Below, piece by piece: positions 1-31,041 of a stretch of DNA of 64,000 nt; positions within the stretch are counted from its first letter, which is position 1, and every line of letters begins with the position of its first letter. Source of the DNA: a virus. The stretch lies in IMG/VR virus record IMGVR_UViG_3300042691_018174; one strand, written 5' to 3'. The notes under the pieces were generated by a model. It did no database searches and was not told the DNA's origin. It saw nothing but the letters and a program-made list of their open reading frames with translations. The translations under genes and the position numbers were made by a program.

Positions 1-3000
1 CCTTGGGTTTTTGGATCTTCGATAATCCTAGCGCACTCATAAGAGCTTAACCTTCTAAAATCTAATTCTGGAAGTGTAATTTTATTTTTAACCCAGAAAT
101 AATAAACATTAACAAAATCATTAATTACAGGATCAAAATATTGATTTATTGATAATACAGTGTTATCAGGAAATCTAGGTTGCCCGGAAATTCCTTTAGA
201 TAGTCCTTCCGCAGTGTCGGCTAACTCAGACCAATCACTTGGTCTAAAATCACTCTTTACCCATTCATATACATCAATTGTAGATCCTGGAAATAATTTA
301 CCCCAGTTATTGCTTCTGTACTCAACCGATCCTTGTTCATACCAATAGTATCTCAGAACACTTGTATCAAACCACAACTCGCCAACATGATCTTCTGCCC
401 ATGTAGTTTTATTATCAACTCTTTCTTTAATACCAGGATTTAACGCAACTGTATATATTGCAGGATCAAAAGGAGAAATATACTTGATTTCTCTTAATAC
501 ATCTAATGGCAGCTTTCCTTTTACTGGGTCAAAGATTTCATAGTTTTCTACTATCTCTAAAGTTTCTTTATTATAAGAAAAAACTTTTTTAATTTTTTCT
601 ACATCAACTAATGGTGTATTCTGATATCTAACTTTAGTCCAAGACCAAGAACTTCCGCAACCGCAATCATCTGATTTTTTATCAAATATAACAACATTAC
701 CTGAATCAGTATAAGTCTGACCTAACTCTTTTAAATCAAACTTGGGAGAACCCACTACACAGAATGTTCCATCTGTAGCAATTCCTGATCCATAATTGTC
801 AGCTGTTCCAGATTCTTTACTCACCAATAATTCACCAAAAGTAAATTTATTTCCTAACCTTTGGAATAGATAAACTGCTCCGGTGTCTCTTGGACTATTA
901 ATGAATCGAGTACTATTATTATCAAATGTTGTTCTTGTGTTTCTTATTGAAGAATTAGGATTTAATACATATTCTGAACCATAAATTTCTACTGAATTCA
1001 CATACCTTTCAGTGTACGTATCAAAATACATAGGAGTATCTTGTTCACCGCCTTCTGCTGATACCAATAACGTGTCGCCATCTGAACTCAATTTAACTTT
1101 TCCACCAAAAAGTTCTCCTGGTTGTTCTTTAGGGGAATTAATCTTCTGTGATAGAATATATTGTCCGGCATTATTTTTTTCTAACACATATATCATTCCT
1201 GCATCTAATTTATTTTCTGAAGAATGATCACTAGAGACAACAATCGTAGTTCCGTTTCCAGAAATTGCAAGGCTATCACCAAATCTATCGCTTCTAGCAG
1301 TTCCTAGTCCTGTAATAGTAATATTGTTTAATACATTTTCATTATCAATAATAACAGAACTAGAAAATACAATAGATTCAGCAGATAAATCTGATATTAT
1401 ATAATCTCCGTTATTTTGCTGGGATCCTTGTATCGATATAGTTTGGCCAATTCTAAAACCATCTCTAATAAAATTTCCCACGTTTCTTGTTAAAGAATTT
1501 AATGTGTTATTGAATACTAATGTAACTTCATCTGTATCATATGTAACTACAGATCCTTTTAATAGTAAATCTCCTTCTGAAATAAAATCATCAGCATATA
1601 ATTTTTGTACTAAATTAAATCTTAGATTTACGGGATCTTTTCTAAAAATAAACACTGCACCAGCATGTGCTTGTGTTCTATCTTTCAGATATTCCGGTGC
1701 TGCGACTATCAAAGTATTTCCATCATCTGATAAATCTATTTCCCAACCAAAATAACTATTAACGCCTAATTCAGGAACTTCAGATGCAATGTTATAAGGC
1801 AAGCCATTCTTTAATTCTACTTTCCACGTATTATTATTGTCTAAATAAAATACAAATATTGCACCTAAATTTTGATTTTGTCCTGGGGCTGCTACCAATA
1901 AAAACGGCTTAGTAGTTCCTGCTAATTTAACTGAATAACCAAAAAATGCATTCGCTTGTGGGCTTGGACTAGATAGTACTACATCAACATAATAATATTG
2001 ATCCACAGAGTCAAACTTCATTATTTTTATAGCACCTTCATCAAATAAACTAGTAGCTGTAAAATTAAAGTTTAATACTCTTTCAAATGGCTGAGTTCCT
2101 AGTTGGCTATTGATAGACTTAGCATTTGAACTATTAGGAGCTCCTGATACAATGTATCTAGTATCTAAATCATCTGATTCCCAAATAGTCAAGCTCTTTC
2201 CATGATTTCTAGGATGCTCGGAAATAGCAACACCATTTTTAAGTGTTTGTATGGTTAATATATCACTGACATTTTCCTCTAATAGGAAACTTTGTTTTAA
2301 TTGTATGTCTTTTGGTTCAAAAACTTGTCTTTCATAGATGTATACACGCCCCTTCTGCAATGTTGTCGCAGAAACTAAAATATTTTTAGATTTTGGAGCA
2401 ACTAAAACTTCTTGGCCGAATGATTGATTAGCTTGTTCAGAATAAGGTCGTAGGTAAGTTGGAATAGTGACTAATTCTTTTTGTAGCACTGCCCAATTAC
2501 CAGTTCCGTCATCGTCAACCCATACTCTTTCACAATCTTGCCACCTAGCAAGACCTTTAATATTAGAAATATCATCAAAAGATTTTAATCGTACATTGTC
2601 AAAATAATATATTAGACCATTTAACAGACCTTCTGGTTCTAATACATCGTTAGCAGTAGTAGAAACCACAAAGGATGTTGGGCTAGAAATTCCAATGACT
2701 TCGAAAATTCCATCTAAACTAATACCGACTTGTCTAATTGCAATGAAATCTCTTAATGACAGGTTATGTGCGATGTCAGTAATGTACTCTATTAAATTAT
2801 TTTCCACATCTCCTACATAGTTAATAATCCTAGCAGTAGACAACGTGTACCTTTTGACTCCCCAGTCCCCTATCTTGTTCATGGCGATCCATACAGTGTC
2901 CCCTTCTTTAATAGAAGATACAGAAGTTAGTGATAATAAATTGTCTTCTTTAAATGCTGTAAATGTAACATCGTCAACTCTAACATAACCAGCTGTTGGT

Positions 3001-6000
3001 ATTTTTTGATACTGTTGATAATTATTTCCAGATTGAATAGATGTGTCTAAAGTTGGCCAGGGAGAACCATCAAAGAAATCAGGCTTAACTAAGATATTTT
3101 CTATAGTAATCTTATATGAATCATCGTATGTTGGTTCAACAGCACCGTAATCAAATTCAAATATTTGAGGGTTCTGTTTAAACTTATTTTGATCTAACGT
3201 GAATTCTACTTCTTTATAAGAATTTTCCCCACCAAAATTCCCTACTCTGAACGCCCATTCTTCTTGTAATTCAATATGAGATCCTAAATTCAAATTACTT
3301 GAAACACTGAGTTTTTCTAATGGTAGAATGGTTCCTTTTTCTCTAATATAACCTTGATAAAATTTATATTGACTATTTTCATCTGAAATCAGTGCATTTA
3401 AATAAGTTCTAGGCGTATATCCGATTAATTTTTGTGCTAGTTTTTGTTGCGCTGAATCAAAATTTAAGGAATCTAAACTGTAAAAGTCTTCAAACTGAGA
3501 AATTTTATATTCAAAGTTAGGAAGAATTTGTGCAATTGGTTCTTTGCCTAATTGTACCCAATTTTCATAATTAAACGAACTTGATGGTAACAATTTAGTT
3601 TTAGCTTGATAAAAATTAGTTTGATATTTTACTACATCGCCAATAGAATAGTCGATATCAGGTTGCCAATAATCAATATTCGCAGGATCATATATAAATC
3701 CTGGAACATAATAATCACCTTCCCACCCATCTGTTATAATGCCAGTTATCTTAAATCTAAGTTGTTTATATCCTGATATTGGTTCATAAATTAAATCATT
3801 AAAAAATGTCTTGTTATCAAAAACAACAATATTTTCTTTTTGTACTAATGTTAGTTTGACAAAATATACGCCGTCATTTGGAATGTCAGCTGTGTCAATT
3901 TTAAATTCTCCACCATTTCTTACAACATTAATTTTGCTTCTATCAATTAATGTTCCGTCAGATTTTAGTAGAGTATAATCATAAAAATCTTCCTGTATAT
4001 CTTGTACAACTGCATCAGGACTTATAAATTTAACTTTTGCTGCAAAGGGAGCGACACTGATAATATTAGAATTAGTCCAATTTTGGGATGCCCAGAATAA
4101 GAACTCTTTGCCAGACAGCATCCAATTAGCAGTGACTTCCAACTCATTTAATAATTCATCGAAAACAAATCCCTGCACTTCTAACCATTTCCCGTAACTT
4201 AAGATAAAATTAAATGTGTCCTGAACACTTTTAAAATATGTACCGTAAGGAATTAATATTTCAGTCTCTTCAAAATTAGCTGGTACTCTAGCCTCAATAC
4301 CTCCAATTTTTGGCAAGTACGGTAGAGGATAATATAAATTTTCATCAAAGGTAGTACTTGTTTTATGATCTGCTTTAGACCTATAAAAAGAAGTCCCAAG
4401 AGCTACTACTGTGCCGCCTGATATATTACTATTATCTGACCAAGTGATATAAGATTCGCTGGTAGCCCCAACACTTATCACGGTATCTCCAGGAGACTCT
4501 ATAGCGTTAAAAATTTTAAAATATGGTTTTAAACTATCATAACCTCGAACCTTAAATCCTTCTGGAGTTTTTTCAATGATTATTCCAGACATTGATAATG
4601 TTTTAATTGGTGAGCTTACGTTTAGATCTAGTTTATAATTTTCAAATGGAATATAGATTTGATTTACAGTTTTATTACTAGATACTGTTTCTAAAGCTAT
4701 TTTAAATTTTTCTTTAGATGAAAATCCGCCAACTTTGTAAAGTAAATTAACAGAAATATTGTTAATAAACTTTTTAAAGGTTGTTGCAGATTCCTGTGAC
4801 TTTGTTTTATTATATTCTACAATATACGGAGAATAACCAGTAGACAATACTATCGATCCATTTTCTTTAGTGGAAAATATTTTTAAATCTTTTGGCGAAA
4901 CTCTTAAATTTGTTTCGCTATAAACTAACTGATTAGCAATATTAAATTTGTTTCTATACGTATCAAAATTCAATGTAGCGTATTTGGCAGGCTTACTTAA
5001 AAATGCTACCATTTGCAATGCGAAAGGATAGAAAGAACTTCTTCTCCATGAATTTTCAGCAGGCCCTATATCACCAAAATCCCAATCTCTGTATTTTTTA
5101 TTTTGATCATATTCTTGTATAATACCAATAACTAATGGATCTCTTAAATCACCATAATCGTCAACTGGTAGAATATTTTTTAATCCTGGCCTAGTATAAA
5201 TCTCATGAAAACCTTGCCTATTTCCTAATCTAACAAACCCTTTTTCTAAATCGTCCCAAAGAATTTTGTTACCAGAAGTATAAGGAGCCGCTCCGTATTC
5301 TGAATCCCACCATTGAGGCTTTTCATTAAATCCCAACATCTCCCATGGTGATGTGTGAGGTCTATCAGTATCATAATAGAACTTAAAAATTTTCCTCCAA
5401 GACCCATTTAACACGATATTAGATGCTAAATTTCCAAATCCATTTGTAAAATTATAAGCGAAAGAACTTGTATAATATTGATTATTATTAGGTTTATAAT
5501 CGACACCGTAAGTACCAGTCCATCTCAAAAATTCTTCTTCCAAGATACTCTGGAATCTTTTGACATCCCCTTTATTATTTCTAAAAACTCCTGGCACTAC
5601 TTCATTGATATCAAAAAATCTTGGATCATACTTAACTTTGATGTTATTAAAAATTCTCTTTTCAATTTCTAACATAAACAAATCTCTATCATCACCGTAG
5701 GCAATTGATATTGATCCATCATGTCCTTGTAAAACTGTCTGAGTTTCTATATAAGTGTCATCTTCAAATATTTTGGGTTCAAAAACTGGGTATAGACCTA
5801 ACTTAGTTGGTGTAAATGGTACACAAGCTCCGTAAACATTATTAAAAAATACTATTTTTATATTATCATTCAATGATAAAGATTTAACAAATGTTACTAA
5901 CGAATTAGTATCATCTAATACATAATCATAATCAATTGTTTGCAAAATATTGTTTAGATACACTGAAATAGCTGTTTTACCTAATGCATTCCTATTATAC

Positions 6001-8690
6001 ACATTAGAAGAAACATAAGCATATGCCTTTCTATTCACATTTTGCACTTGATATGTAAACGCACGACTATCATACCCGTATGGTATCATATCACTATAAT
6101 AGAATATGTCAGTAACTGTTTTATCCTTAGCAATATCTGATAATACTGTATCAACTGCTTCGGATACTGATGTATAGCTACTAAGCTCAGTAAATTTCTG
6201 TAAAAGTTTTACTTTAAATTTTTGATATTCTACTGCTGACCAACGGAGTGCATTGATTAAATTAAAATCTTTATCAGTAATTAATGCACCAGCTAAACTA
6301 ACTAAACCCTCGTGCTGTACAAATCTTCTTCCATATTTTTTCAAGTCACCTTTGTCTCGTAAATTGCTTGATGTGATGACTTCATTAATGCCTTTAGATG
6401 CATTTAACAAAATAGAATTTAAATGGTCGTTAATCTCAGCATAGGTCATATTCTGAGGATATTCATTTAATGGATTATTAGTTAAATTTATAGGGGCTTC
6501 ATAATACCCTTTATCTTTTTTGTCATATACTGGCAAAGCTCTAACTACAACAACGTCATTTTCTGCTAAGTTAAAATTAAAATTTAAAAATAATGCATCA
6601 AAAGCCACATCAGAAGATAAATCAAAAGAATTTTTGTCTAATTCTTCACCGTTTATGAAAACTCTAATTGTTGCTTTAGATGTTTGGACGTTAAGTGAAT
6701 CCAGTTCAACAGAACTCTCACCACCAATAGCAATTTTTTGTTCAATTATTTCTTGAATAGAGTTAGAATCACATTTTTCCCAAGAATTTACGTATCTCAA
6801 TGTATCATCATTGATTCTTAAAAATCCATTTTTTGAATTAAGATTTAGTTTTACATTATTTGAAAAATAATTCCACTCACCTATCGATAAAAAATTCGTA
6901 AACTGATATCCGCCTACATTAGACACGTTGCCGTATCTTATAGGAAATCCTAATACAGGATCATCAACGCCAGTACCTGTTTGATATCCAAATATTGGTG
7001 TCCCGTAAAAATCACTACCGAAATACTCTGAAAACCCAACACCTGTTTCATCATATAGTTCAAATAAAGGGGTTTGATTTACTTTGGTTTTTATTTGTGC
7101 CTTAACCCATTGGCTATTTTTATAAACCCAAGAAGTTCTTCCGTTTTTTGTGCCACGTAAAACTAAAAGACCTTGTTCATCTGATGGGAATGAATCATCT
7201 GTTTGTTTTAAATGAATTTTTCTAATACCTTCAATATCTAAAAATTCAACTTCGTAAACATTATTTTTAACATCTGGATCTTTTTCATTTAAAAAAACAA
7301 TTCTATTACCGTGTTCTAATGATTGTCCATCAATGTAAAATCCTAATGATCCTTCAATTTTACTATACGCATCATCAATGGTTTCATCTAAAAAGTCTAC
7401 ATATTTTTTAGATGTAGATGCAAAATTATATAACTGTAAATTTTTTTCAAATTCTATAATAGGTCTTTTAGCTCTTAGATTTTCATCAAATAACGGTTCA
7501 ATATTATTGTATTCTGCAGACGCATTAATTACATCTATATGAAACCATCTATTATAGCGACTCCATGGATTTTTATCTTTGCTTGCTCGATTAATTACAA
7601 TATAATCAGGTGTTTCTGGATACATTGTAACTTCATCAAAAGGCAATTCATCAAAAGATTCTAAATCAAACGAAGTTTCAACTTTACTAGAATATCCTTC
7701 AACAGTAACTAATTCCTCATAATCTATTAGTTCAATTGCTTGTCCCACACCTTCAACAATAAAAGTTTTATTTCTATAATATTCAGGAACAACATTATCA
7801 GAAAAAGATACTGTCATTCCATTACTAAGACTAAATCCTTCTTTGATTTGATAAGTTTTTTTAGTTAAAATATCTTTTTCAACATCTAATTCAGTATTTT
7901 CTACCTGATCTCTTATTAAGAATTTTCCAAATATTGTTGAATCTGTTCCATCAACATAAAACAAAGAACTAGGTGTATCTTCTAAAACTTCAAATATAAC
8001 TTTGCCAGATGTCGCACCATTGTTAGTAACTCCAGCTGATTGATCTAACGATCCGCTAGTCCGTGAGTTTTTAATATAAAATTCACTAGTTAAGGTATCA
8101 ACTTCAAAAACATAAGTAAACCCTCTATATAAAGTTAGTGTAGGATTTACTGCGATTTCATTATTACTAAATTTCCATACCTTATCACCATTTTCTTCAG
8201 ATATAGAAACAGAGATAGTACTAACAATATTTTTTTCTCTTCCCGTAATTAAAACAGTCTGTGGTCCGCTAGGTACCCAAACATAACTTCTATAGTTTAC
8301 AAACTTATCAAGATCAATATGCGGATTCCAAGTATAACTCTGCTGTTTAAATAATCTATCTTGATTTTTGATATCTGAACCGAATAAAGAAAGACTATTC
8401 AAAATATCTTCATAAGATTTACTGAATTCTACTTTATCTGTAATAGGATTTCTTATAACAATTCCTGGCTCTAACTCATAAACATCTCGCAAAGAATTTG
8501 ATGAAACGTTGCTTAGATATGAATCAACAGATGGATCAAAAGTTTTTAATATTTTGCTGCCAACATATCCGTCAATCTTTTTTAAATTAGGCTTTTGTAT
8601 TAATTGGTCAACAGTCCCTGATAAAAACTTTTCGTTCGCATCAGTCCTAAAGATTACTGGAAGTAATTCAATTGATTTTCTTTTACTCAT
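1..8690 (-). CDS. Giant baseplate wedge-like structural protein (T4 gp7 position), partial, >2,890 aa, runs off the left edge
   Basis: Absent from the ORF track because no stop lies in the window. ATG at 8690 (MSKRKSIELLPVIFRTDANEKFL...), 10 nt after the gp6-like stop. The same frame reads ...YECARIIEDPKTQ at position 3. Contains FG-GAP-like repeats at about 700-2430. The gp7 equivalence rests on position only. Confidence 0.8.
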   Translation of the reverse strand, partial: MSKRKSIELLPVIFRTDANEKFLSGTVDQLIQKPNLKKIDGYVGSKILKTFDPSVDSYLSNVSSNSLRDVYELEPGIVIRNPITDKVEFSKSYEDILNSLSLFGSDIKNQDRLFKQQSYTWNPHIDLDKFVNYRSYVWVPSGPQTVLITGREKNIVSTISVSISEENGDKVWKFSNNEIAVNPTLTLYRGFTYVFEVDTLTSEFYIKNSRTSGSLDQSAGVTNNGATSGKVIFEVLEDTPSSLFYVDGTDSTIFGKFLIRDQVENTELDVEKDILTKKTYQIKEGFSLSNGMTVSFSDNVVPEYYRNKTFIVEGVGQAIELIDYEELVTVEGYSSKVETSFDLESFDELPFDEVTMYPETPDYIVINRASKDKNPWSRYNRWFHIDVINASAEYNNIEPLFDENLRAKRPIIEFEKNLQLYNFASTSKKYVDFLDETIDDAYSKIEGSLGFYIDGQSLEHGNRIVFLNEKDPDVKNNVYEVEFLDIEGIRKIHLKQTDDSFPSDEQGLLVLRGTKNGRTSWVYKNSQWVKAQIKTKVNQTPLFELYDETGVGFSEYFGSDFYGTPIFGYQTGTGVDDPVLGFPIRYGNVSNVGGYQFTNFLSIGEWNYFSNNVKLNLNSKNGFLRINDDTLRYVNSWEKCDSNSIQEIIEQKIAIGGESSVELDSLNVQTSKATIRVFINGEELDKNSFDLSSDVAFDALFLNFNFNLAENDVVVVRALPVYDKKDKGYYEAPINLTNNPLNEYPQNMTYAEINDHLNSILLNASKGINEVITSSNLRDKGDLKKYGRRFVQHEGLVSLAGALITDKDFNLINALRWSAVEYQKFKVKLLQKFTELSSYTSVSEAVDTVLSDIAKDKTVTDIFYYSDMIPYGYDSRAFTYQVQNVNRKAYAYVSSNVYNRNALGKTAISVYLNNILQTIDYDYVLDDTNSLVTFVKSLSLNDNIKIVFFNNVYGACVPFTPTKLGLYPVFEPKIFEDDTYIETQTVLQGHDGSISIAYGDDRDLFMLEIEKRIFNNIKVKYDPRFFDINEVVPGVFRNNKGDVKRFQSILEEEFLRWTGTYGVDYKPNNNQYYTSSFAYNFTNGFGNLASNIVLNGSWRKIFKFYYDTDRPHTSPWEMLGFNEKPQWWDSEYGAAPYTSGNKILWDDLEKGFVRLGNRQGFHEIYTRPGLKNILPVDDYGDLRDPLVIGIIQEYDQNKKYRDWDFGDIGPAENSWRRSSFYPFALQMVAFLSKPAKYATLNFDTYRNKFNIANQLVYSETNLRVSPKDLKIFSTKENGSIVLSTGYSPYIVEYNKTKSQESATTFKKFINNISVNLLYKVGGFSSKEKFKIALETVSSNKTVNQIYIPFENYKLDLNVSSPIKTLSMSGIIIEKTPEGFKVRGYDSLKPYFKIFNAIESPGDTVISVGATSESYITWSDNSNISGGTVVALGTSFYRSKADHKTSTTFDENLYYPLPYLPKIGGIEARVPANFEETEILIPYGTYFKSVQDTFNFILSYGKWLEVQGFVFDELLNELEVTANWMLSGKEFLFWASQNWTNSNIISVAPFAAKVKFISPDAVVQDIQEDFYDYTLLKSDGTLIDRSKINVVRNGGEFKIDTADIPNDGVYFVKLTLVQKENIVVFDNKTFFNDLIYEPISGYKQLRFKITGIITDGWEGDYYVPGFIYDPANIDYWQPDIDYSIGDVVKYQTNFYQAKTKLLPSSSFNYENWVQLGKEPIAQILPNFEYKISQFEDFYSLDSLNFDSAQQKLAQKLIGYTPRTYLNALISDENSQYKFYQGYIREKGTILPLEKLSVSSNLNLGSHIELQEEWAFRVGNFGGENSYKEVEFTLDQNKFKQNPQIFEFDYGAVEPTYDDSYKITIENILVKPDFFDGSPWPTLDTSIQSGNNYQQYQKIPTAGYVRVDDVTFTAFKEDNLLSLTSVSSIKEGDTVWIAMNKIGDWGVKRYTLSTARIINYVGDVENNLIEYITDIAHNLSLRDFIAIRQVGISLDGIFEVIGISSPTSFVVSTTANDVLEPEGLLNGLIYYFDNVRLKSFDDISNIKGLARWQDCERVWVDDDGTGNWAVLQKELVTIPTYLRPYSEQANQSFGQEVLVAPKSKNILVSATTLQKGRVYIYERQVFEPKDIQLKQSFLLEENVSDILTIQTLKNGVAISEHPRNHGKSLTIWESDDLDTRYIVSGAPNSSNAKSINSQLGTQPFERVLNFNFTATSLFDEGAIKIMKFDSVDQYYYVDVVLSSPSPQANAFFGYSVKLAGTTKPFLLVAAPGQNQNLGAIFVFYLDNNNTWKVELKNGLPYNIASEVPELGVNSYFGWEIDLSDDGNTLIVAAPEYLKDRTQAHAGAVFIFRKDPVNLRFNLVQKLYADDFISEGDLLLKGSVVTYDTDEVTLVFNNTLNSLTRNVGNFIRDGFRIGQTISIQGSQQNNGDYIISDLSAESIVFSSSVIIDNENVLNNITITGLGTARSDRFGDSLAISGNGTTIVVSSDHSSENKLDAGMIYVLEKNNAGQYILSQKINSPKEQPGELFGGKVKLSSDGDTLLVSAEGGEQDTPMYFDTYTERYVNSVEIYGSEYVLNPNSSIRNTRTTFDNNSTRFINSPRDTGAVYLFQRLGNKFTFGELLVSKESGTADNYGSGIATDGTFCVVGSPKFDLKELGQTYTDSGNVVIFDKKSDDCGCGSSWSWTKVRYQNTPLVDVEKIKKVFSYNKETLEIVENYEIFDPVKGKLPLDVLREIKYISPFDPAIYTVALNPGIKERVDNKTTWAEDHVGELWFDTSVLRYYWYEQGSVEYRSNNWGKLFPGSTIDVYEWVKSDFRPSDWSELADTAEGLSKGISGQPRFPDNTVLSINQYFDPVINDFVNVYYFWVKNKITLPELDFRRLSSYECARIIEDPKTQ

Positions 8691-19526: not shown

Positions 19527-20548
19527 TGTCAAATCTTTTTAAGAAAGTAGCGTGTTTTACTGATATTCACTTTGGATTAAAATCTAATAGCAGAACTCAT
19601 AACGAAGATTGTATCGATTTTGTTGAGTGGTTTATTAAAACTGCCAAAGAAGAAGGGTGTGAGACTGCAATATTCCTGGGAGATTGGCACCATAATAGAA
19701 GTACTACTGATGTTAGCACTATGAATTATACTGTGAGAGCGTTAGAAAAACTCAACGATGCGTTTGACGTAGTACATGTCATTACTGGAAATCACGATCA
19801 ATATTATAAAGACAAAAGAGACTTGCACAGTTTAGAATACGGAAGACTTTTTTCAAATATTAATATGGTCAACCATGTTTTCACAGAAGGCGGAGTTACT
19901 ATTTTGCCTTGGCTTGTTAGTGACGAGTGGAAACAGATAGAAAAAATAGACAGTCGATATATTTTTGGACATTTTGAACTCCCATTATTCTATATGAATG
20001 CAATGGTTCAGATGCCTGACCACGGCGAATTACAAACCCACCATTTTAAAAATCAAGAATTTGTTTTCAGTGGTCATTTCCATAAACGGCAATGTAAGGA
20101 CAAAATACATTATATTGGTAACTCTTTCCCTCACAATTATGCTGATGCTTGGGATGATGAGCGGGGTATGATGATACTTGAATGGGGCAAACAACCCAAA
20201 TATATTAACTGGCTTGACTGTCCTAAGTACAGGACTGTAAAATTAAGTAGGTTAATTGACGAACAAGCGGATATTATCAAAGATAAAATGTATCTACGTG
20301 TGACTTTAGACATAGATATCACATTTGAAGAGGCCAATTTCATCAAAGAAACATTTATGAGACAACATAATATTCGAGAACTTAGCCTTATAACAGAAAA
20401 AGAAGTATTTGATGTAGGACACGATGATTTATCTGATGTTCAATTTGAAAGTGTAGATCAAATTGTATCAGAACAAATCCTTGCATTGGAGTCCGGAACA
20501 TACAATACCAACAGACTTTTGGAAATTTATAATAACCTTCATGTTTAA
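19523..20548 (+). CDS. Recombination endonuclease, gp47/Mre11/SbcD-like
   Basis: Metallophosphoesterase motifs DIHFG, GDWHH, GNHD, GHF, SGHFH. Confidence 0.95.
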   Translation: MMSNLFKKVACFTDIHFGLKSNSRTHNEDCIDFVEWFIKTAKEEGCETAIFLGDWHHNRSTTDVSTMNYTVRALEKLNDAFDVVHVITGNHDQYYKDKRDLHSLEYGRLFSNINMVNHVFTEGGVTILPWLVSDEWKQIEKIDSRYIFGHFELPLFYMNAMVQMPDHGELQTHHFKNQEFVFSGHFHKRQCKDKIHYIGNSFPHNYADAWDDERGMMILEWGKQPKYINWLDCPKYRTVKLSRLIDEQADIIKDKMYLRVTLDIDITFEEANFIKETFMRQHNIRELSLITEKEVFDVGHDDLSDVQFESVDQIVSEQILALESGTYNTNRLLEIYNNLHV

Positions 20549-22334
20549 ACTAAAAACTATAACAGTAAAAAACTTCATGAGTGTGGGTAATCAAACCCAA
20601 GCAGTTGACTTTGATAAAGCCCATTTAACATTAGTGTTAGGCGAAAATTTAGACTTGGGCGGCGATGACAGCGGAAGTCGAAACGGTACTGGAAAAACTA
20701 CTATCATTAATGCTTTAAGTTATTCTCTTTATGGGGAAGCATTAACTAAAATTAAGAAAGAAAATTTAATTAATAAAACTAACGGAAAAAATATGGTAGT
20801 CACCGTTGAGTTTGAGATTAATGGTAGAAAATATAAGATAGAGCGCGGAAGAAAGCCAAATTTTTTAAAATTTTATGTTGATCAAATAGAATTACAAAAC
20901 GACGACGGCGACGACGATGCGCAAGGCGACAGTCGAGAAACACAAAAAGCTATAGAATCGTTGATTGGAATGACTCCCACAATGTTCAAGCACTTAGTAG
21001 CACTGAATACATACACTGAACCGTTCTTATCTATGAGGAACAATGATCAAAGAGATGTTATCGAACAATTATTAGGCATTACTATATTAAGTGAAAAAGC
21101 AGAACTATTAAAAATACAGTTGAAAGAAGTTAAAGATAAAATTCAAGCGGAAAATTTTAAAATAGAAAGCATAAGGAACAGCAATGACAAAGTACAACAA
21201 TCGATCAATAGCTTGGTTAACAAGTCCAATGCCTGGGAAACTAAACGAACAGAAGATTCAAGAAAGCTTCAAGAAGCCATCGACGAGCTGTGTTCTGTTG
21301 ACATCGAAAACGAGATTGCCAATCACGAAAAATTAAAAAATTATTTAGAACTATCTGAAAAAATATCATCTTTAAACAAACAAAAAGCTACTTTAGAAAC
21401 AGCATTAACACAGGCAGAAAAGACAGCAAAAAAATATACAGATGAGCTGACTTCTTTAGAAAATAAAAAATGTCCGGCTTGTGATCAAGAATTGCATGAT
21501 CACAAACATGAAGACATGATTAATAAGGTTAATAAAAATCTTACTGATTCAGTAATCTATATGGAAGGTATAAGTTCTGAATTAAATTCTGTCAAATCTG
21601 ATCTAGAAAAAATAGGTGACATCAATGGTCGCCCTGTAACTTTTTATGAAAGAGCAGAAGAAGCATACAATCATAGAAATAATCTAGATAGTTTAGAAAG
21701 AGCACTAGTTGACAAAACTTCAGAATCAAATCCTTTCTTAGAGCAGATAGAAGAATTGAAAAACACTGCTATGCAAGATCTTGATTGGCAAGGTATCAAT
21801 GATCTAACTTCATTAAAAGATCACATGGAGTTCTTACACAAATTATTGACTAATAAAGATAGCTTCGTTAGAAAGAAGATTATTGATCAGAATCTAAGTT
21901 ACTTGAATAAAAGACTAAGTTATTATCTGACCAAGAGCGGATTACCTCACCAAGTAAGATTTTTAAACGATCTAAATGTCGAAATCACACAGTTGGGGCA
22001 GGATTTAGACTTCGATAATCTTAGCCGAGGTGAAAGAAATCGATTGATTTTAAGTTTAAGTTGGGCATTTAGAGACGTTTGGGAGAGTTTGTATCAGCCA
22101 ATTAATCTGTTGTTCATTGACGAACTGATTGATGCAGGTATGGACAGTGCAGGTGTAGAAGCTGGTCTTTCTATACTAAAGAAAATGTCAAGGGAACGCA
22201 ATAAGAACATATATCTCATCAGTCACAAAGATGAACTAGCGGGAAGAGTTAATAGTATATTAAGAGTAGTTAAAGAAAACGGGTTTACTAGCTATTCTAA
22301 TGATACTGACGTTATAGAACCGGCATTGTCATGA
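20541..22334 (+). CDS. Recombination ATPase, gp46/Rad50/SbcC-like
   Basis: Likely start ATG 20541 (MFKLKTITVKNFMSVG). Walker A NGTGKT, coiled coil with CPAC zinc hook, signature LSRGE, Walker B LFIDE, H-loop ISH. Confidence 0.95.
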   Translation: MFKLKTITVKNFMSVGNQTQAVDFDKAHLTLVLGENLDLGGDDSGSRNGTGKTTIINALSYSLYGEALTKIKKENLINKTNGKNMVVTVEFEINGRKYKIERGRKPNFLKFYVDQIELQNDDGDDDAQGDSRETQKAIESLIGMTPTMFKHLVALNTYTEPFLSMRNNDQRDVIEQLLGITILSEKAELLKIQLKEVKDKIQAENFKIESIRNSNDKVQQSINSLVNKSNAWETKRTEDSRKLQEAIDELCSVDIENEIANHEKLKNYLELSEKISSLNKQKATLETALTQAEKTAKKYTDELTSLENKKCPACDQELHDHKHEDMINKVNKNLTDSVIYMEGISSELNSVKSDLEKIGDINGRPVTFYERAEEAYNHRNNLDSLERALVDKTSESNPFLEQIEELKNTAMQDLDWQGINDLTSLKDHMEFLHKLLTNKDSFVRKKIIDQNLSYLNKRLSYYLTKSGLPHQVRFLNDLNVEITQLGQDLDFDNLSRGERNRLILSLSWAFRDVWESLYQPINLLFIDELIDAGMDSAGVEAGLSILKKMSRERNKNIYLISHKDELAGRVNSILRVVKENGFTSYSNDTDVIEPALS

Positions 22335-22582
22335 TAAGAAACGAGCACGAACGATTTTTAGATTTAGTTCTAGAATATTATAATTGTAGAGAGGCCTGGT
22401 TAGAAAAAAATACCAAAGTTAATCACATGAGATATCGAAGAGTACTAAAAGAAATAAGGGCACATACAAAAATAATGATAGACAAAGTGCAACAAGTAAA
22501 TTCACACAAACTATCAGTAAACAAAGAAAATAAAGAAAAAACCGGAACTTTCGCAAGAAAGTCCAAACCAATCGATCTTTGA
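22331..22582 (+). CDS. Small basic helical protein, possible diverged Hc1-like paralogue
   Basis: ATGA overlap with gp46; ungapped similarity to the next gene around RxRxxLxE. Confidence 0.65.
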   Translation: MIRNEHERFLDLVLEYYNCREAWLEKNTKVNHMRYRRVLKEIRAHTKIMIDKVQQVNSHKLSVNKENKEKTGTFARKSKPIDL

Positions 22583-22609
22583 CATTTCAATTTCTATTTG
22601 AAGTCAAAG
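22577..22609 (+). promoter_or_regulatory. Intergenic inverted repeat followed by a variant late box (TAAGTA, 22620-22625)
   Basis: CTTTGACatTTCAA...TTGAAGTCAAAG imperfect stem over the upstream stop codon; function unknown. Confidence 0.35.
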
Positions 22610-22651
22610 TATCTTTACGTAAGTAAGTTAACTTTAATAAGGAAAAATAAA

Positions 22652-22846
22652 ATGAGTGATACCGTAAAACTAATTGAACAAACCTTAGAGCAGTGGCGTG
22701 CAGAAGACGCTAAATTTGCTTCTGGAAACAATGCCGCAGGGACTCGAGCTAGAAAGGCTTTAGCTGAACTTAGCAAAGCAGTGAAGGCTCGCCGTAACGA
22801 AATCACAGCAGAAAAGAACGCTCGTAAAGAAGCAAAGGCTGCTTAA
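22652..22846 (+). CDS. Histone H1-like (Hc1-family) small basic protein (64 aa)
   Basis: KFASGNNAAGTRARKALAELSKAVKARRNEI matches the Hc1 N-terminal pattern GNxAAGxRARK. Start set to ATG 22652 (AAGGA SD). Confidence 0.8.
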   Translation: MSDTVKLIEQTLEQWRAEDAKFASGNNAAGTRARKALAELSKAVKARRNEITAEKNARKEAKAA

Positions 22847-23010
22847 TGTCAGACGTTGACGCAAAAAAGATTCAACAACTTGAATATAATCTTAAAAGAT
22901 TAGAACAAATGGTTTTACAGTTATCGAACCGTGTTAACTATCTAGAGCGTGAGCGTCAACGTATAAAAAATGATGTTAGTCAAATTGCTGGATATATTAG
23001 AAGACAATGA
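22846..23010 (+). CDS. Small coiled-coil protein (54 aa), below the ORF-track cutoff
   Basis: MSDVDAKKIQQLEYNLKRLEQMVLQLSNRVNYLERERQRIKNDVSQIAGYIRRQ; TAATG overlap upstream and ATGA overlap downstream fill the gap exactly; heptad leucines. Confidence 0.85.
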   Translation: MSDVDAKKIQQLEYNLKRLEQMVLQLSNRVNYLERERQRIKNDVSQIAGYIRRQ

Positions 23011-23453
23011 CTTGGTTATTTGAAGGAGTCGATGTTGAGCAACTGCCTGAAGATTGTGTTGGATTTGTTTATATAATTACTAACTTGATCACAGGCCGCA
23101 TGTACATAGGCAAAAAATTAGCAAAATTCGCAAAAACAACATACAAAGTACACAAATTAAAAAACGGCACCAAAAAACGCAAAAGAATAAGAAGCAAAGT
23201 AGATAGCGATTGGCAAGAATATTACGGCTCTAGCGACGAATTAAACTCAGATATAGAAAAATTAGGCAAAGAAAACTTCAAACGTGAAATCCTTCATTAT
23301 TGCACAAGTAAATCAGAAACTTCATATCTCGAAGCTAAAGAACAATTTGAACGTAAAGTATTAGAAACCAATGAATATTATAACGGTCATATTCAAGTTC
23401 GTGTTCACGGCTCTCACATAATCAAAAAAATTAAGGCTCAAAAAAACAGTTAA
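23007..23453 (+). CDS. Stand-alone GIY-YIG endonuclease (148 aa)
   Basis: GFVYIITNLITGRMYIGKK, YYGSS, YLEAKEQ (catalytic Glu), YYN; basic insert KLKNGTKKRKRIRSK; no C-terminal DNA-binding domain. Confidence 0.9.
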   Translation: MTWLFEGVDVEQLPEDCVGFVYIITNLITGRMYIGKKLAKFAKTTYKVHKLKNGTKKRKRIRSKVDSDWQEYYGSSDELNSDIEKLGKENFKREILHYCTSKSETSYLEAKEQFERKVLETNEYYNGHIQVRVHGSHIIKKIKAQKNS

Positions 23454-23454
23454 T

Positions 23455-23840
23455 GACTCGCACAGGTTAATTTCATGTGCCTAGTGACAACCCACGGAGA
23501 GGTGGGGGACGGAAGACTCTGCGCTGTACAGAGCACTCAGTAACTATCCTTAACAGGACGATGATCAGATATGCCTACATACAACTGGTTTTGCTGTTTG
23601 AAAAAATTTAAAAAAGGCTAAAGGAGGGGAGAAATACCCCAGGTTACTAGATAAGATAACGTTTATCTAGCAACTGCCGTCATAAAGAAGACGGGATGAG
23701 TAGGTACCGGATGACCGCCTGCGCATTTGCTATTTGCAAATATAATCCTTACGTTATGTGGTTGTGCTACTCGGATGATGTACAAACATTTTTTTGCCCG
23801 GCAACGGGCGAAATGTGGCTGATTTATCTGGATGATATCT
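23455..23840 (+). ncRNA. Putative large structured non-coding RNA of unassigned class (about 380 nt)
   Basis: About 44% GC by hand count over 23461-23820, clearly above the AT-rich flanks. At least 10 stems, GNRA tetraloops (GAAA 23631-34, GCAA 23801-04) and G-U pairs favouring the + strand, plus long-range helices. Ends are approximate. Confidence 0.7.
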
Positions 23841-23842
23841 TA

Positions 23843-23915
23843 AAACACTTCGTGTTTATTCAAAGAAATAAAAATGTGAATCACGTAGTGATGAACAAGT
23901 GAGCGTAGCTCACTT
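23843..23915. repeat. Cluster of three C-GNA-G triloop hairpins
   Basis: AAACAC-TTC-GTGTTT (GAA loop on the - strand), TGT-GA-ATCAC-GTA-GTGAT-GA-ACA, AAGTGAGC-GTA-GCTCACTT. Confidence 0.75.
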
Positions 23916-23922
23916 AATACAA

Positions 23923-24141
23923 TCAAATAAATGCCATACCACTATCTTTAGTGATTTTCATATTTTCTTTTATAATATCTGTGATGATCTCTCGATCTTC
24001 ATGTGTTAGCATATAAGCCTCATTCAGATTGATACCGCCTCTCATTTGCCATGCTATTCTGAGTATTTCTTTTACAAGGGCTTTCGCTTCATCGTCAATT
24101 CTAGTGGTGTAATTGACGATCTCAGACAGGGTTAAAGTCAA
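23923..24141 (-). CDS. gp51-like / tail chaperone 'T' segment, probably expressed by -1 frameshift from the upstream gene
   Basis: IAWQMRGGINLNEAYMLTHEDREII resembles gp51 and tail-chaperone C-terminal helices; only a TTG start with no well-spaced SD; frame is open back through the slippery site at 24159-24153. Confidence 0.7.
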   Translation of the reverse strand: MTLTLSEIVNYTTRIDDEAKALVKEILRIAWQMRGGINLNEAYMLTHEDREIITDIIKENMKITKDSGMAFI

Positions 24142-25010
24142 AAGCCTTGATCGAAAAAACTTGAATAATCAAACTCAAATGGCACTGTTACTTCAGCTGG
24201 CGCACCTTTTTCCACATACTGAGGTGGTGTCTGTACAGTTAAAGTTCTGTCGTTGTTGTGATTGTTCAGTTTTCTAAAAGCATCTGAGATCTTACTGAAA
24301 ATATCTTTATCTACATTGTTTAGAAATTCTTTAATGTGTTCTGGATTGGTTGTGTTACCTTCTACAGTTTCGATCTTGTAGATTCCATTGATCATCTGCA
24401 TCAATGTTGCATCTGCAATGGTATTCATAGCCTGTGCTGTTAGATTAACACGCTGTTCTTCAGTGATCTCTGTCTCTCGGATCAAAGTGGCTAGTATGCG
24501 ATTACTGTCGAAACTCAATAGATTGTAATCAGTCATAACTTTATAACTCACAGGAGCAATATATACTGTCATATCTCCGCTGATTGTTACTGATTCATCC
24601 CATAAAGTATTTTCTATGATCTTATCTAAAATTGGTCTTAAATCAATTTCATAAGGTTCTGCTTCTTGGAATCCTGGAATGTTAACACTCATGGTCATTT
24701 TTTCACCATATGTGGCTATTCTTATGGCAATTAAAATAGCATCTAAATCTATAGAAGGTATCGCCCAAGCGTTTTTTATGTTAGGTACACAGCTCTGTAT
24801 AACATCCACTGTAGTTCTACCATTAAACAACGCATCAGGTGTCCTTATTAATAATTCATCTTTTGCAGTCAATCCGTAGACAGGTAGTTCGCCATTTTCA
24901 GGAAATTCTAAGGAACCTTCAGGCCAAAATTTACCTCCGCTGGGTAATTTTAAAAACATCTTAGGTCTACGCATAAAAGATGATAAAGGATTTTTCTGCT
25001 GTTCTGCCAT
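24138..25010 (-). CDS. Baseplate hub assembly / tail chaperone protein, T4 gp26-like (290 aa)
   Basis: LKLPSGGKFWP, VYGLTAKDELL, IDLDAILIAIRIATYGE are gp26-family motifs; the usual CxxC pairs are absent. Confidence 0.82.
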   Translation of the reverse strand: MAEQQKNPLSSFMRRPKMFLKLPSGGKFWPEGSLEFPENGELPVYGLTAKDELLIRTPDALFNGRTTVDVIQSCVPNIKNAWAIPSIDLDAILIAIRIATYGEKMTMSVNIPGFQEAEPYEIDLRPILDKIIENTLWDESVTISGDMTVYIAPVSYKVMTDYNLLSFDSNRILATLIRETEITEEQRVNLTAQAMNTIADATLMQMINGIYKIETVEGNTTNPEHIKEFLNNVDKDIFSKISDAFRKLNNHNNDRTLTVQTPPQYVEKGAPAEVTVPFEFDYSSFFDQGF

Positions 25011-30414: not shown

Positions 30415-31041
30415 ATGAGCCTTATTTTACGTGAAAACTTATCATTTGACCAAGCTCGATGCATAGTTGAGTCTGATGATGCAGATGGTAAGACCCTTTA
30501 TATGAAGGGAATTTGCATTCAAGGCGGAATCCGAAACGCGAATCAACGAGTATACCCTGTTGATCAAATTGGCAATGCTGTCAAAACATTAGTCGATCAG
30601 ATTAAAAACGGATACAGTGTTTTAGGCGAAGTCGATCATCCAGATGATTTGAAAGTTAATTTGGACCGTGTTAGTCACATGATCACAGATATGTGGATGG
30701 ACGGTCCAAATGGTTACGGTAAATTTAAAATTTTACCAACACCAATGGGAAATTTAGTACGCACTATGCTAGAGTCTGGCGTTAAGCTAGGTGTATCTAG
30801 TAGAGGTAGCGGAAACGTTGACGACAGAAACGGTGAAGTCAGCGATTTTGAGATAATAACAGTTGATGTTGTTGCACAACCAAGTGCTCCAGGAGCATAT
30901 CCTACAGCCATTTATGAACATTTTATGAATTCTAAAGGTGGTTATAGGGCTATACAAATAGCGCATGAGGTTAAAGAGGATCCAAAGGCCCAAAAATATC
31001 TTAAGGAAAATATCCTTAACATTATTCAAGGTCTAAAATAA
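30415..31041 (+). CDS. Prohead protease, T4 gp21-like
   Basis: NANQRVYP, GEVDHP (His), LGVSSRGSG (Ser), DVVAQPSAPGAY (Asp). Confidence 0.97.
   Translation: MSLILRENLSFDQARCIVESDDADGKTLYMKGICIQGGIRNANQRVYPVDQIGNAVKTLVDQIKNGYSVLGEVDHPDDLKVNLDRVSHMITDMWMDGPNGYGKFKILPTPMGNLVRTMLESGVKLGVSSRGSGNVDDRNGEVSDFEIITVDVVAQPSAPGAYPTAIYEHFMNSKGGYRAIQIAHEVKEDPKAQKYLKENILNIIQGLK

What the first reader, a model, noticed from the sequence alone, without database searches (positions are those of the whole stretch)
23455..23840. Large, ornate structured non-coding RNA not matching the classes I can recognise
Seen: the only long non-coding gap in 64 kb, about 44% GC. Local stems: GCACA/TGTGC (23460-80), CCCAC/GTGGG (23491-506), CTCTG/CAGAG (23517-33), TCCT-TAAC-AGGA (23547-58), GGGGA-GAAA-TaCCCC (23626-40), GTTaCTAGATAA/TTATCTAGcAAC (23643-74), CCGTC/GACGG (23677-94), CGG-ATGA-CCG (23708-17), ATTTGC/GCAAAT (23725-41), TGCCCG-GCAA-CGGGCG (23795-810). 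Long-range pairs: CAGATA 23566/TATCTG 23825, GAGTAG 23698/CTACTC 23767, AAGGA 23621/TCCTT 23746; the last two would cross as a pseudoknot. GNRA loops and G-U pairs point to a + strand RNA. Known: phages carry large RNAs of unknown function (GOLLD, ROOL). Inference: a new or unrecognised member of such a class, possibly a ribozyme, scaffold or replication primer.
Basis: partly seen in the sequence, partly recalled or inferred. Interest (0 to 1): 0.85.

Follow-up and report, generated by a model that had tools for sequence, protein, structure and literature searches.

The report
Knotted twin-box RNA of aquatic phages
The gene-free gap behind a small nuclease gene of this uncultured freshwater T4-like phage encodes a real folded non-coding RNA of about 405 bases with several pseudoknots. 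Only its first third is catalogued, as the unexplained Rfam motif Polynucleobacter-1. Its tail carries the same fast-changing 7-letter word twice, for a reader that is still unknown.

Summary
The stretch is a real + strand RNA gene, about 23455-23860. Its first 145 nt are a full-length match to Rfam RF01718, Polynucleobacter-1 (85 bits, cut-off 37). The remaining 260 nt or so match no Rfam family. They are nevertheless conserved in more than 119 IMG/VR phage contigs.

On 75 homologues at most 64% identical to the window, my structure is 86.7% paired against 72.6% in shuffles (0 of 500 as high). It has 16 helices, four of them pseudoknots. 71 of 92 pairs change on both sides. Its three long-range pairs do not.

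Two 11-nt boxes (23769-79 and 23826-36) carry a 7-mer that is identical in 75 of 75 RNAs, although it has 11 variants. I found no complementary partner.

The RNA always follows a small nuclease gene but does not depend on it. A different nuclease replaces that gene in five loci, and cultured phages carry the gene without the RNA.

One lake metatranscriptome covers only the RNA, which is a weak hint of expression.

Function is unknown. My best guess is a trans-acting RNA that shows one short code twice to a two-site reader.

This scan found the same family earlier in at least 91 other genomes.

The parts
23455..23860 (+). Whole RNA gene (about 405 nt), from just after the stop codon of the upstream gene to the terminal hairpin and U-rich tail
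   Evidence: Conservation along the whole stretch in more than 100 IMG/VR contigs. Structure test. Exact-match RNA-library contig at 23560-23780.
23455..23599 (+). 5' domain, the Rfam RF01718 Polynucleobacter-1 motif
   Evidence: cmscan 85.3 bits against a gathering score of 37, model positions 1-141 of 141.
23456..23480 (+). H1 hairpin (23460-64 with 23476-80), plus pairing of the 5' tail 23456-58 with the H1 loop 23465-67 (pseudoknot PK0)
   Evidence: H1 94.7% paired, 4 of 5 pairs change on both sides. PK0 pair 23456/23467 is GC in 55 and AU in 15 sequences.
23491..23534 (+). H2 (about 23491-95 with 23502-06), the conserved purine junction 23506-14, and H3 (23515 and 23517-21 with 23529-34)
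   Evidence: H2 7 of 7 and H3 5 of 6 pairs change on both sides.
23538..23596 (+). Three-way junction: H4 (23538-43 with 23591-96) encloses the invariant H5 (23547-49 with 23556-58) and H6 (23563-68 with 23585-90)
   Evidence: H4 93-98% paired, H6 97.3% paired, both with compensatory changes. H5 never varies.
23573..23618 (+). Tentative pseudoknot PK1: H6 loop 23573-76 with 23615-18
   Evidence: Matched variants across subfamilies seen by eye. An anchored test only just exceeds permuted partners: 47% against a mean of 37% and a maximum of 46%. Poorly aligned in A1.
23626..23674 (+). H7 (23626-29 with 23637-40) and the long hairpin H8 (23643-55 with 23662-74)
   Evidence: H7 4 of 4 and H8 11 of 12 pairs change on both sides.
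23656..23757 (+). Pseudoknot PK2: H8 loop 23656-61 with 23752-57
   Evidence: 95.2% paired, 6 of 6 pairs change on both sides.
23679..23722 (+). Pseudoknot PK3 (23679-83 with 23711-15) crossing H11 (23700-04 with 23718-22). The invariant block 23704-19 sits in the H11 loop.
   Evidence: PK3 97.9% and H11 98.4% paired, with compensatory changes.
23693..23749 (+). H10 (23693-97 with 23745-49), enclosing H11 and a variable hairpin (23724-41) that most relatives lack
   Evidence: 92% paired, 5 of 5 pairs change on both sides. The insertion is visible.
23769..23779 (+). Box R1: four constant letters, then a variable 7-mer at 23773-79
   Evidence: The 7-mer is identical to that of R2 in 75 of 75 aligned RNAs and in 82 of 82 by pattern. 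Weak support that it sits in a hairpin loop (z = 3.0).
23793..23812 (+). H14 hairpin between the two boxes (GNRA-type tetraloop in the window)
   Evidence: core pairs conserved, 4 pairs with compensatory changes.
23826..23836 (+). Box R2: four constant letters that differ from those of R1, then the same variable 7-mer at 23830-36
   Evidence: No local closing stem detected.
23843..23862 (+). Terminal hairpin H15 (23843-48 with 23852-57, UUC triloop) and U-rich tail, the probable 3' end or terminator
   Evidence: The stem covaries in relatives (6 of 6 pairs change on both sides). It was not called by the simple terminator scan.
23007..23453 (+). Upstream neighbour: a 148-aa GIY-YIG nuclease consisting of the catalytic domain only. 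This is context, not shown to be a partner.
   Evidence: Pfam PF19835, E 6e-34. phrog_447. Present just upstream of the RNA in 108 of 119 loci. 41% identical to P-SSM2 PSSM2_218.

Best explanation
Shown: 23455-23860 (+) is the gene of a compactly folded RNA of about 405 nt with several pseudoknots. It is the full-length form of the Rfam orphan motif Polynucleobacter-1, carried by a large clade of uncultured aquatic T4-like phages. It lies at the 3' end of the rightward sigma-factor/recombination-nuclease gene block, directly after the stop codon of a small nuclease gene. It ends in a hairpin with a U-rich tail that faces the leftward baseplate genes.

Inferred: it is made as, or cut from, the tail of that transcript and acts in trans as a stable RNA. 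The conserved knotted body is a rigid scaffold. Its working part is the pair of boxes R1 (probably in a hairpin loop) and R2 (in the single-stranded 3' linker). They show the same short, fast-evolving 7-letter code twice to one two-site or dimeric reader, which could be a protein or a nucleic acid of the phage or host and which lies outside this locus.

My odds: that the RNA and its fold are real, about 0.95. That the boxes are read twice by one common partner, about 0.4.
For: - Rfam hit on the 5' domain.
- Conservation over the whole stretch in more than 119 viral contigs whose best identity to the window is 64%.
- Structure test on 75 sequences: 86.7% paired against 72.6% in shuffles (0 of 500 as high); 1025 cells with a change on both sides against 359; covariation 0.406 against 0.177 in shuffles and 0.05-0.10 for slid partners.
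- Many conserved G-U pairs fix the strand.
- No conserved ORF.
- A lake metatranscriptome holds a 222-nt contig identical to 23560-23780 and a second contig from a related variant of the same RNA, with no cover on about 2 kb of flanking genes.
- The box 7-mers are identical in 75 of 75 RNAs although there are 11 variants. On a tree built from the rest of the RNA, this needs at least 32 haplotype changes.
- Distant subfamilies, and a relative invisible to Rfam (L121), have quite different box sequences, yet again the same one twice.
- No complementary stretch lies at a consistent place within 3 kb.
Against: - No reader was found.
- The G/A box positions switch so often, and so independently of every neighbouring protein, that a co-evolving protein reader is awkward.
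- Recombination of the 70-nt block may inflate the count of independent switches.
- The expression evidence is two low-depth contigs from one run.
- RNA ends and half-life are unknown.
- The scans called no promoter and no canonical terminator beside the RNA.
- The secondary structure around R2 is unresolved.
Confidence: 0.4

Rival explanations
1. Self-processing RNA or ribozyme. The two identical boxes are two equivalent cleavage or ligation sites. They would be recognised by the RNA's own core or by one RNase, releasing or circularising the roughly 57-nt H14 segment between them.
For: The many invariant single-stranded blocks and at least three pseudoknots resemble catalytic RNAs. Two identical sites fit one active site. 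The exact-match RNA contig ends at 23780, one base after box R1, although contig ends prove nothing.
Against: No internal guide complementary to the boxes. No hit to any ribozyme family in Rfam. There is no evidence of cleavage, and contigs cannot show RNA ends.
Confidence: 0.12
2. Replication-primer or R-loop RNA, or a DNA-level element. The RNA, or the DNA itself, marks an origin. The twin boxes act like iterons, or let the RNA grip its own template at either copy.
For: The locus sits between convergent gene blocks next to recombination genes. Direct repeats kept identical within a genome are typical of DNA sites read by one protein.
Against: Almost all constraint is of the RNA type, meaning compensatory and G-U pairs on one strand. 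There is no AT-rich unwinding element and no further copies of the box nearby. Pairing with its own template would not by itself force the two boxes to match.
Confidence: 0.1
3. Cis-acting 3' untranslated structure. It would be a processing barrier, stabiliser or terminator module for the upstream operon, or an insulator against the converging late transcripts.
For: It abuts the upstream stop codon in every locus, whichever gene is upstream. It ends in a hairpin with a U-rich tail.
Against: About 400 nt with pseudoknots, invariant junctions and twin boxes is far more than such a role needs. The RNA-library contigs cover the RNA but not the upstream gene.
Confidence: 0.08
4. Guide or cofactor RNA of the adjacent GIY-YIG nuclease, which is a catalytic domain only with no DNA-binding domain. 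The boxes would be its targeting code.
For: Tight adjacency in 108 of 119 loci. The 2010 description saw the same link. The protein lacks a DNA-binding domain.
Against: - In five loci a PDDEXK_15 nuclease replaces the GIY-YIG gene while the RNA stays intact.
- In seven loci an unrelated ORF of about 260-280 aa lies between the two.
- Homologues of the nuclease in cultured phages (Melnitz 56%, P-SSM2 41%) have no such RNA behind them.
- GIY-YIG residues track the box variant less than gp46, portal or baseplate residues do.
- Relatives with 76% identical nucleases have entirely different boxes.
Confidence: 0.05

Closest known systems
Polynucleobacter-1 RNA motif (Rfam RF01718; Weinberg et al. 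2010, Genome Biol 11:R31, PMC2864571)
   Same: The window's 23455-23599 is a full-length member (85 bits). It shares the same helices, the same freshwater setting and the same position downstream of the GOS11034 / PSSM2_218-type gene, shown here to be a small GIY-YIG nuclease. The 2010 alignment flanks already show the conserved block that the window carries at 23704-19.
   Different: Rfam models 141 nt, classes it as an sRNA of unknown function, and its authors found no example in any purified phage. Here it is the 5' third of an RNA of about 405 nt with three further well-supported long-range helices and twin boxes, and it sits in T4-like phage contigs.
Large ornate orphan RNAs linked to phages: GOLLD (RF01998) and ROOL (RF03087)
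   Same: They are large, intricately folded, often phage-borne, of unknown function and without an obligatory protein partner.
   Different: There is no sequence or structure match. This RNA is smaller, has a different architecture, and twin identical boxes are not a described feature of those families (from my own knowledge).
Phage sites kept identical within a genome but differing between phages: lambdoid nutL/nutR boxB read by N, and the a1b1/a2b2 sites of P1/P7 read by C4 antisense RNA
   Same: One short sequence is present twice, matched within each phage and different between relatives, because one specific reader sees both copies. This rests on established knowledge and is offered as an analogy of mechanism only.
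   Different: Those sites lie in mRNA leaders and have known readers encoded nearby. Here both copies lie inside one structured RNA and no reader, protein or antisense, was found.
Two-piece tmRNA of related marine myophages (Melnitz; Buchholz et al. 2022, PMC9004378)
   Same: It is a large, pseudoknotted, phage-encoded RNA in the same broad phage group.
   Different: ARAGORN finds no tmRNA in the window and no tmRNA family of Rfam matches. There is no tRNA-like domain and no tag reading frame. In Melnitz the tmRNA lies elsewhere, and nothing like this RNA follows its GIY-YIG homologue.

Membership tests
Rfam RF01718 Polynucleobacter-1 | Covariance-model score at or above the curated gathering score, over the whole model | tested here: met
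   85.3 bits against 37, E 1.1e-16, model positions 1-141 of 141, not truncated.
Rfam RF01718 Polynucleobacter-1 | Consensus helices kept by compensatory changes in relatives | tested here: met
   H1, H2, H3, H4 and H6 are 77-98% paired, with changes on both sides in 25 of 30 pairs.
Rfam RF01718 Polynucleobacter-1 | Position downstream of a GOS11034 / P-SSM2 PSSM2_218-like gene (context noted by the authors) | tested here: met
   The upstream 148-aa protein is 41% identical to PSSM2_218, E 8e-23.
GOLLD / ROOL / other catalogued large RNAs (OLE, raiA, HEARO) | Match to the family covariance model | tested here: not met
   No match on 22800-24300 up to E = 5 other than RF01718 and four chance-level hits.
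tmRNA (one-piece or permuted two-piece) | tRNA-like domain plus tag reading frame, detectable by ARAGORN or the Rfam tmRNA models | tested here: not met
   ARAGORN finds 0 genes in 64 kb. No Rfam tmRNA family matches.
RNase P RNA, group I and group II introns, small self-cleaving ribozymes | Match to the family covariance model; for introns, flanking exons that join into a gene | tested here: not met
   No Rfam match. No split gene around the element. Short resemblances to RNase P conserved regions that I recalled from memory were not borne out by any model.
Guide RNA of an adjacent nuclease (in the manner of HEARO/omega RNA with IscB) | Obligatory co-occurrence with the nuclease gene | tested here: not met
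   RNA present without the GIY-YIG gene in L015, L019, L050, L052 and L081. The gene is present without the RNA in Melnitz and P-SSM2.
Guide RNA of an adjacent nuclease | A variable guide segment matched by a target sequence | tested here: inconclusive
   The boxes are variable, but complements are at chance level in the window and in the loci. Complete phage and host genomes were not available.

The most novel reading that the evidence does not exclude
The twin boxes are a programmable address. The knotted body would be a constant scaffold, and the 7-letter word, shown twice, would pair with or otherwise select a matching nucleic-acid target of the phage, a competing phage or the host. That would make this a widespread RNA-specified recognition system of aquatic T4-like phages that does not depend on a dedicated neighbouring protein. 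A stranger structural variant is also not excluded: the two boxes might contact each other base for base in the same 5'-to-3' direction, which is the only direct contact that would itself demand identity rather than complementarity.
Probability: 0.1. Interest if true: 0.85.

Novelty: new variant of a known kind. Interest (0 to 1): 0.6.

Why it matters
Polynucleobacter-1 has stood in Rfam since 2010 as a 141-nt orphan from lake and estuary metagenomes with no known carrier. This window and its relatives show three things:
- It is only the 5' third of one of the larger and more intricately pseudoknotted RNAs known from phages.
- Its carriers are abundant uncultured T4-like phages of lakes and seas.
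- It contains a rare evolutionary signal, two short sequences that change often yet always together.

That signal gives an unusually clean experimental handle: change one box, both boxes, or swap boxes between phages. It could be used to ask what a large phage RNA does. If it is a protein, it would be a new RNA-protein recognition pair.

Tried and rejected
- **Protein coding.** The 68-aa ORF 23696-23902 has one weak relative in 119 loci. Rejected.
- **Stop-codon or ribosome-bypass reading of the boxes.** In this subfamily the box reads as a sense codon followed by UGA or UAA. There is no upstream reading frame, the spacing to the conserved anchor is not in threes, and other subfamilies have unrelated boxes. 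Rejected.
- **Partner for the boxes.** There is no reverse complement at a consistent place within 3 kb. Only U-rich, all-wobble candidates appear inside the RNA. Nine-mers complementary to the boxes occur 8 times in 878 kb of loci against 6.7 expected. The window-wide search was at chance level. The exact 10-nt complement of R2 at 30635-44 lies in a coding palindrome and has no consistent counterpart.
- **Pairing of box R1 with the constant letters of R2.** It is always possible over 4 bp, but without variation it shows nothing, and no extension holds.
- **Local stems around the boxes.** Ungapped registers fail. The permutation test gives weak support only for a stem closing R1.
- **Coupling of box variant to residues of the nuclease.** It is weaker than for any control protein.
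- **blastn of the RNA against 50,697 cultured-phage records.** No match. This shows only that no near relative is in that collection.
- **nhmmer with a profile of subfamily 1.** It found nothing in 16 genome-collection loci that encode nuclease relatives. One of them (L121) nevertheless has a divergent twin-box RNA by eye, so that profile is too narrow.
- **Search of the nearest held virus record (G001) for RF01718.** Nothing found. The record is a 19-kb fragment and the control rang nowhere, so this is uninformative.
- **RNA run X21.** Nothing could be laid on the stretch. This is no evidence of absence.
- **Simple promoter and terminator scan.** Nothing beside the RNA.
- **Resemblances to RNase P conserved regions, CsrA sites, K-turns, T-loops and anticodon loops.** These were recalled from memory, and none survived the variation seen in relatives.

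Full report
**What is at the site.** The window is part of an uncultured freshwater T4-like myophage.
- Rightward genes: a Rad50-like gp46 nuclease subunit (20463-22334), an Hc1 histone-like protein (22598-22846) and a 148-aa GIY-YIG protein consisting of the catalytic domain only (23007-23453).
- Leftward genes, meeting them: a 72-aa gene (23923-24141) and a baseplate-hub gene (24138-25010). A T4-type portal gene follows at 27541.
- Near-identical DNA occurs in freshwater, lake and aquaculture metagenomes.
- Between the two gene blocks lies the flagged gap. The only ORF in it (68 aa) is not conserved.

**Known part.** Infernal against Rfam 15 gives one match in the whole 64 kb above a gathering score: RF01718, Polynucleobacter-1, at 23455-23599 on the + strand. 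The score is 85.3 bits against a cut-off of 37, and the match is full length. A permissive scan of 22800-24300 adds nothing credible, so 23600-23860 is in no Rfam family.

Weinberg et al. 2010 (PMC2864571) described the motif from lake and estuary metagenomes and one Polynucleobacter genome. They made three remarks:
- Its 3' half is not always detected.
- Most examples lie downstream of genes of family GOS11034, possibly related to PSSM2_218 of cyanophage P-SSM2.
- No example was found in a purified phage.

The flanks printed in their alignment already show the conserved block that the window has at 23704-19. I fetched PSSM2_218. It is 41% identical to the window's GIY-YIG protein, E 8e-23, so the 2010 context and this one are the same. 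No later paper in the library mentions the motif.

**Relatives.** Aligning about 90 nt before to 330 nt after the pattern shows conservation through the whole 23455-23860. The best relative is only 64% identical to the window.

Gene order is kept. gp47-like and gp46-like genes lie upstream. The small nuclease gene ends at the RNA's first base in 108 of 119 loci. The 72-aa and baseplate genes lie downstream on the other strand, and the portal gene lies beyond them.

**Structure.** From mutual information and compatibility scans and reading of the alignments, I built a model of 16 helices. Coordinates are in the parts list. I tested it on a MAFFT alignment of 75 distinct sequences (A1) with the pair-counting tool.

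| Measure | Model | Shuffled 3' partners | Partners slid 1-3 columns |
|---|---|---|---|
| Cells paired | 86.7% | 72.6% (0 of 500 as high) | 36-45% |
| Pairs with changes on both sides | 71 of 92 | 61.0 | 36-47 |
| Cells with changes on both sides | 1025 | 359 | 147-264 |
| Covariation score | 0.406 | 0.177 | 0.05-0.10 |

- **Best supported long-range elements:**
  - The H8 loop with 23752-57: 95% paired, 6 of 6 pairs compensatory.
  - 23679-83 with 23711-15: 98% paired.
  - 23693-97 with 23745-49: 92% paired, 5 of 5 pairs compensatory.
  - The junction-closing helix 23538-43 with 23591-96.
- **Fourth pseudoknot:** the H6 loop with 23615-18. It shows matched variants across subfamilies but only marginal statistics.
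- **Fifth contact:** the 5' tail with the H1 loop. It rests mainly on one covarying pair.
- **Strand:** many positions are conserved as G-U, which fixes the + strand.
- **Stability:** the single-sequence fold is modestly more stable than shuffles, z = -2.75.

**Twin boxes.** Two 11-nt stretches, 23769-79 and 23826-36, each consist of four constant letters followed by seven letters of which four vary among relatives. The four constant letters differ between the two boxes.
- The top non-complementary signals in the mutual-information table are same-letter couplings between the boxes.
- The 7-mers are identical in 82 of 82 sequences found by pattern and in 75 of 75 rows of A1, across 11 variants.
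- On a maximum-likelihood tree built from the rest of the RNA, the variant needs at least 32 changes. The first variable position alone needs 17. Recombination of this short block may inflate these counts, but at least ten matched double changes are required in any case.
- Distant subfamilies have completely different boxes, longer or shorter, yet again the same one twice. So does the RNA behind a 56%-identical nuclease gene in L121, which Rfam does not recognise at all.
- The boxes belong to a duplicated module of about 35 nt with a shared conserved lead-in.
- R1 has weak support for lying in a hairpin loop. R2 has no detectable local stem.

I found no complement to the boxes in the RNA, within 3 kb, in the 64-kb window, or across 878 kb of loci. 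Ordinary base pairing demands complementarity, not identity. The signal therefore points to a common reader, to a copying process, or to an unusual direct contact.

**Relation to the nuclease.** Adjacency is striking, but the evidence argues against a dedicated pair.
- Five loci carry a PDDEXK_15 endonuclease (PF24608; the PHROG is annotated as resolvase-like) in place of the GIY-YIG gene, with the RNA intact.
- Seven loci have an unrelated ORF of about 260-280 aa between gene and RNA.
- Cultured phages with homologous nuclease genes have no such RNA behind them. In Methylophilales phage Melnitz (56% identical) the next gene starts about 150 nt downstream and no Rfam family matches. In P-SSM2 the next gene abuts the nuclease gene.
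- Nuclease residues correlate with the box variant less than residues of gp46, portal or baseplate proteins do.

Two unrelated small nucleases occupy one slot next to the gp46/47 recombination genes. This suggests a DNA-processing role for them, with the RNA as a conserved neighbour at the end of the transcription unit.

**Expression.** Of 21 public runs holding the stretch, one is a lake metatranscriptome with a small share of the stretch's words. Laid on 22400-24800, it gives two results:
- a 222-nt contig identical to 23560-23780
- a 223-nt contig matching 23531-23599, whose overhangs read like a related variant of the same RNA

There is no cover on the roughly 1 kb of genes on either side. 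DNA runs cover the whole stretch. This is one run, at low depth, and made of contigs only. I treat it as a weak hint that the RNA accumulates more than its neighbours.

**Reading.** The RNA, its strand, its extent and most of its fold are established. Its function is not.
- I favour, at about 0.4, a stable trans-acting RNA whose rigid body presents one short code twice to a two-site reader. This is analogous to phage sites such as nutL/nutR, which stay matched within a phage because one factor reads both.
- The alternatives are self-processing at the boxes, a primer or DNA-level role, a cis 3' element, or a guide for the neighbouring nuclease. They are listed with their odds under rival explanations.

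**Earlier notes of this scan.** The first look-up returned notes on this same stretch from other readings of the window. The later look-ups came after my own analysis. They show that other agents met the same family in at least 91 other genomes and reached the same description: an extended Polynucleobacter-1 RNA with twin identical 7-letter boxes and an unknown reader. One case was later re-checked and stood. My results agree.

This window adds:
- the identification of PSSM2_218 as the same nuclease family
- the permutation tests around the boxes
- the metatranscriptome contigs

Noticed in passing
window 23897-23915; A1 columns about 600-654 (for example in L095, L014 and L069): A perfect 8-bp hairpin with a GTA triloop lies between the RNA and the leftward 72-aa gene. 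Many relatives carry, at the same place, a conserved hairpin motif with a doubled 'AGCG' core. It may be a shared terminator or protein site of these phages. The first-stage reader of another window read such hairpins as single-stranded-DNA structures.
   Followed up: no
window 22598-22846 (+): This T4-like phage encodes an Hc1-type histone H1-like protein (Pfam PF07432, E 5e-13), two genes upstream of the RNA. It is present in only 15 of 119 related loci.
   Followed up: partly
L016:10375-11148:+, L059:1262-2113:+, L105:10098-10922:-: Two unrelated ORF families of about 260-280 aa, with no Pfam match, are inserted between the nuclease gene and the RNA in seven relatives. One starts with a GDSL/SGNH-hydrolase-like N-terminal motif.
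   Followed up: partly
window 30635-30648 (+), inside ORF 30415-31041: A 14-nt near-palindrome contains the exact 10-nt reverse complement of box R2 with its preceding three letters. L061, which has the same box variant, has a 9-nt complement at a similar distance. Overall counts are at chance level.
   Followed up: partly
L121 and L122 (PBPT01000016.1 and PBPT01000082.1): Two long contigs (335 kb and 153 kb) binned as one 'Neomarinimicrobiota' MAG carry almost the same nuclease gene and divergent twin-box RNA. They are probably giant-phage or prophage DNA in the bin.
   Followed up: no
window 3-8690 (-) and 58755-63998 (+): Two very long reading frames run off the window, at least 2896 aa and at least 1748 aa. 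Further ORFs of 1135-1239 aa are also present, which is unusual even for a large myophage.
   Followed up: no
phage records; L137:26712-27149: The small GIY-YIG family (phrog_447; 729 cultured-phage records, mostly cyanophages) is widely annotated as 'NAD synthetase'. This looks like a propagated mis-annotation.
   Followed up: partly
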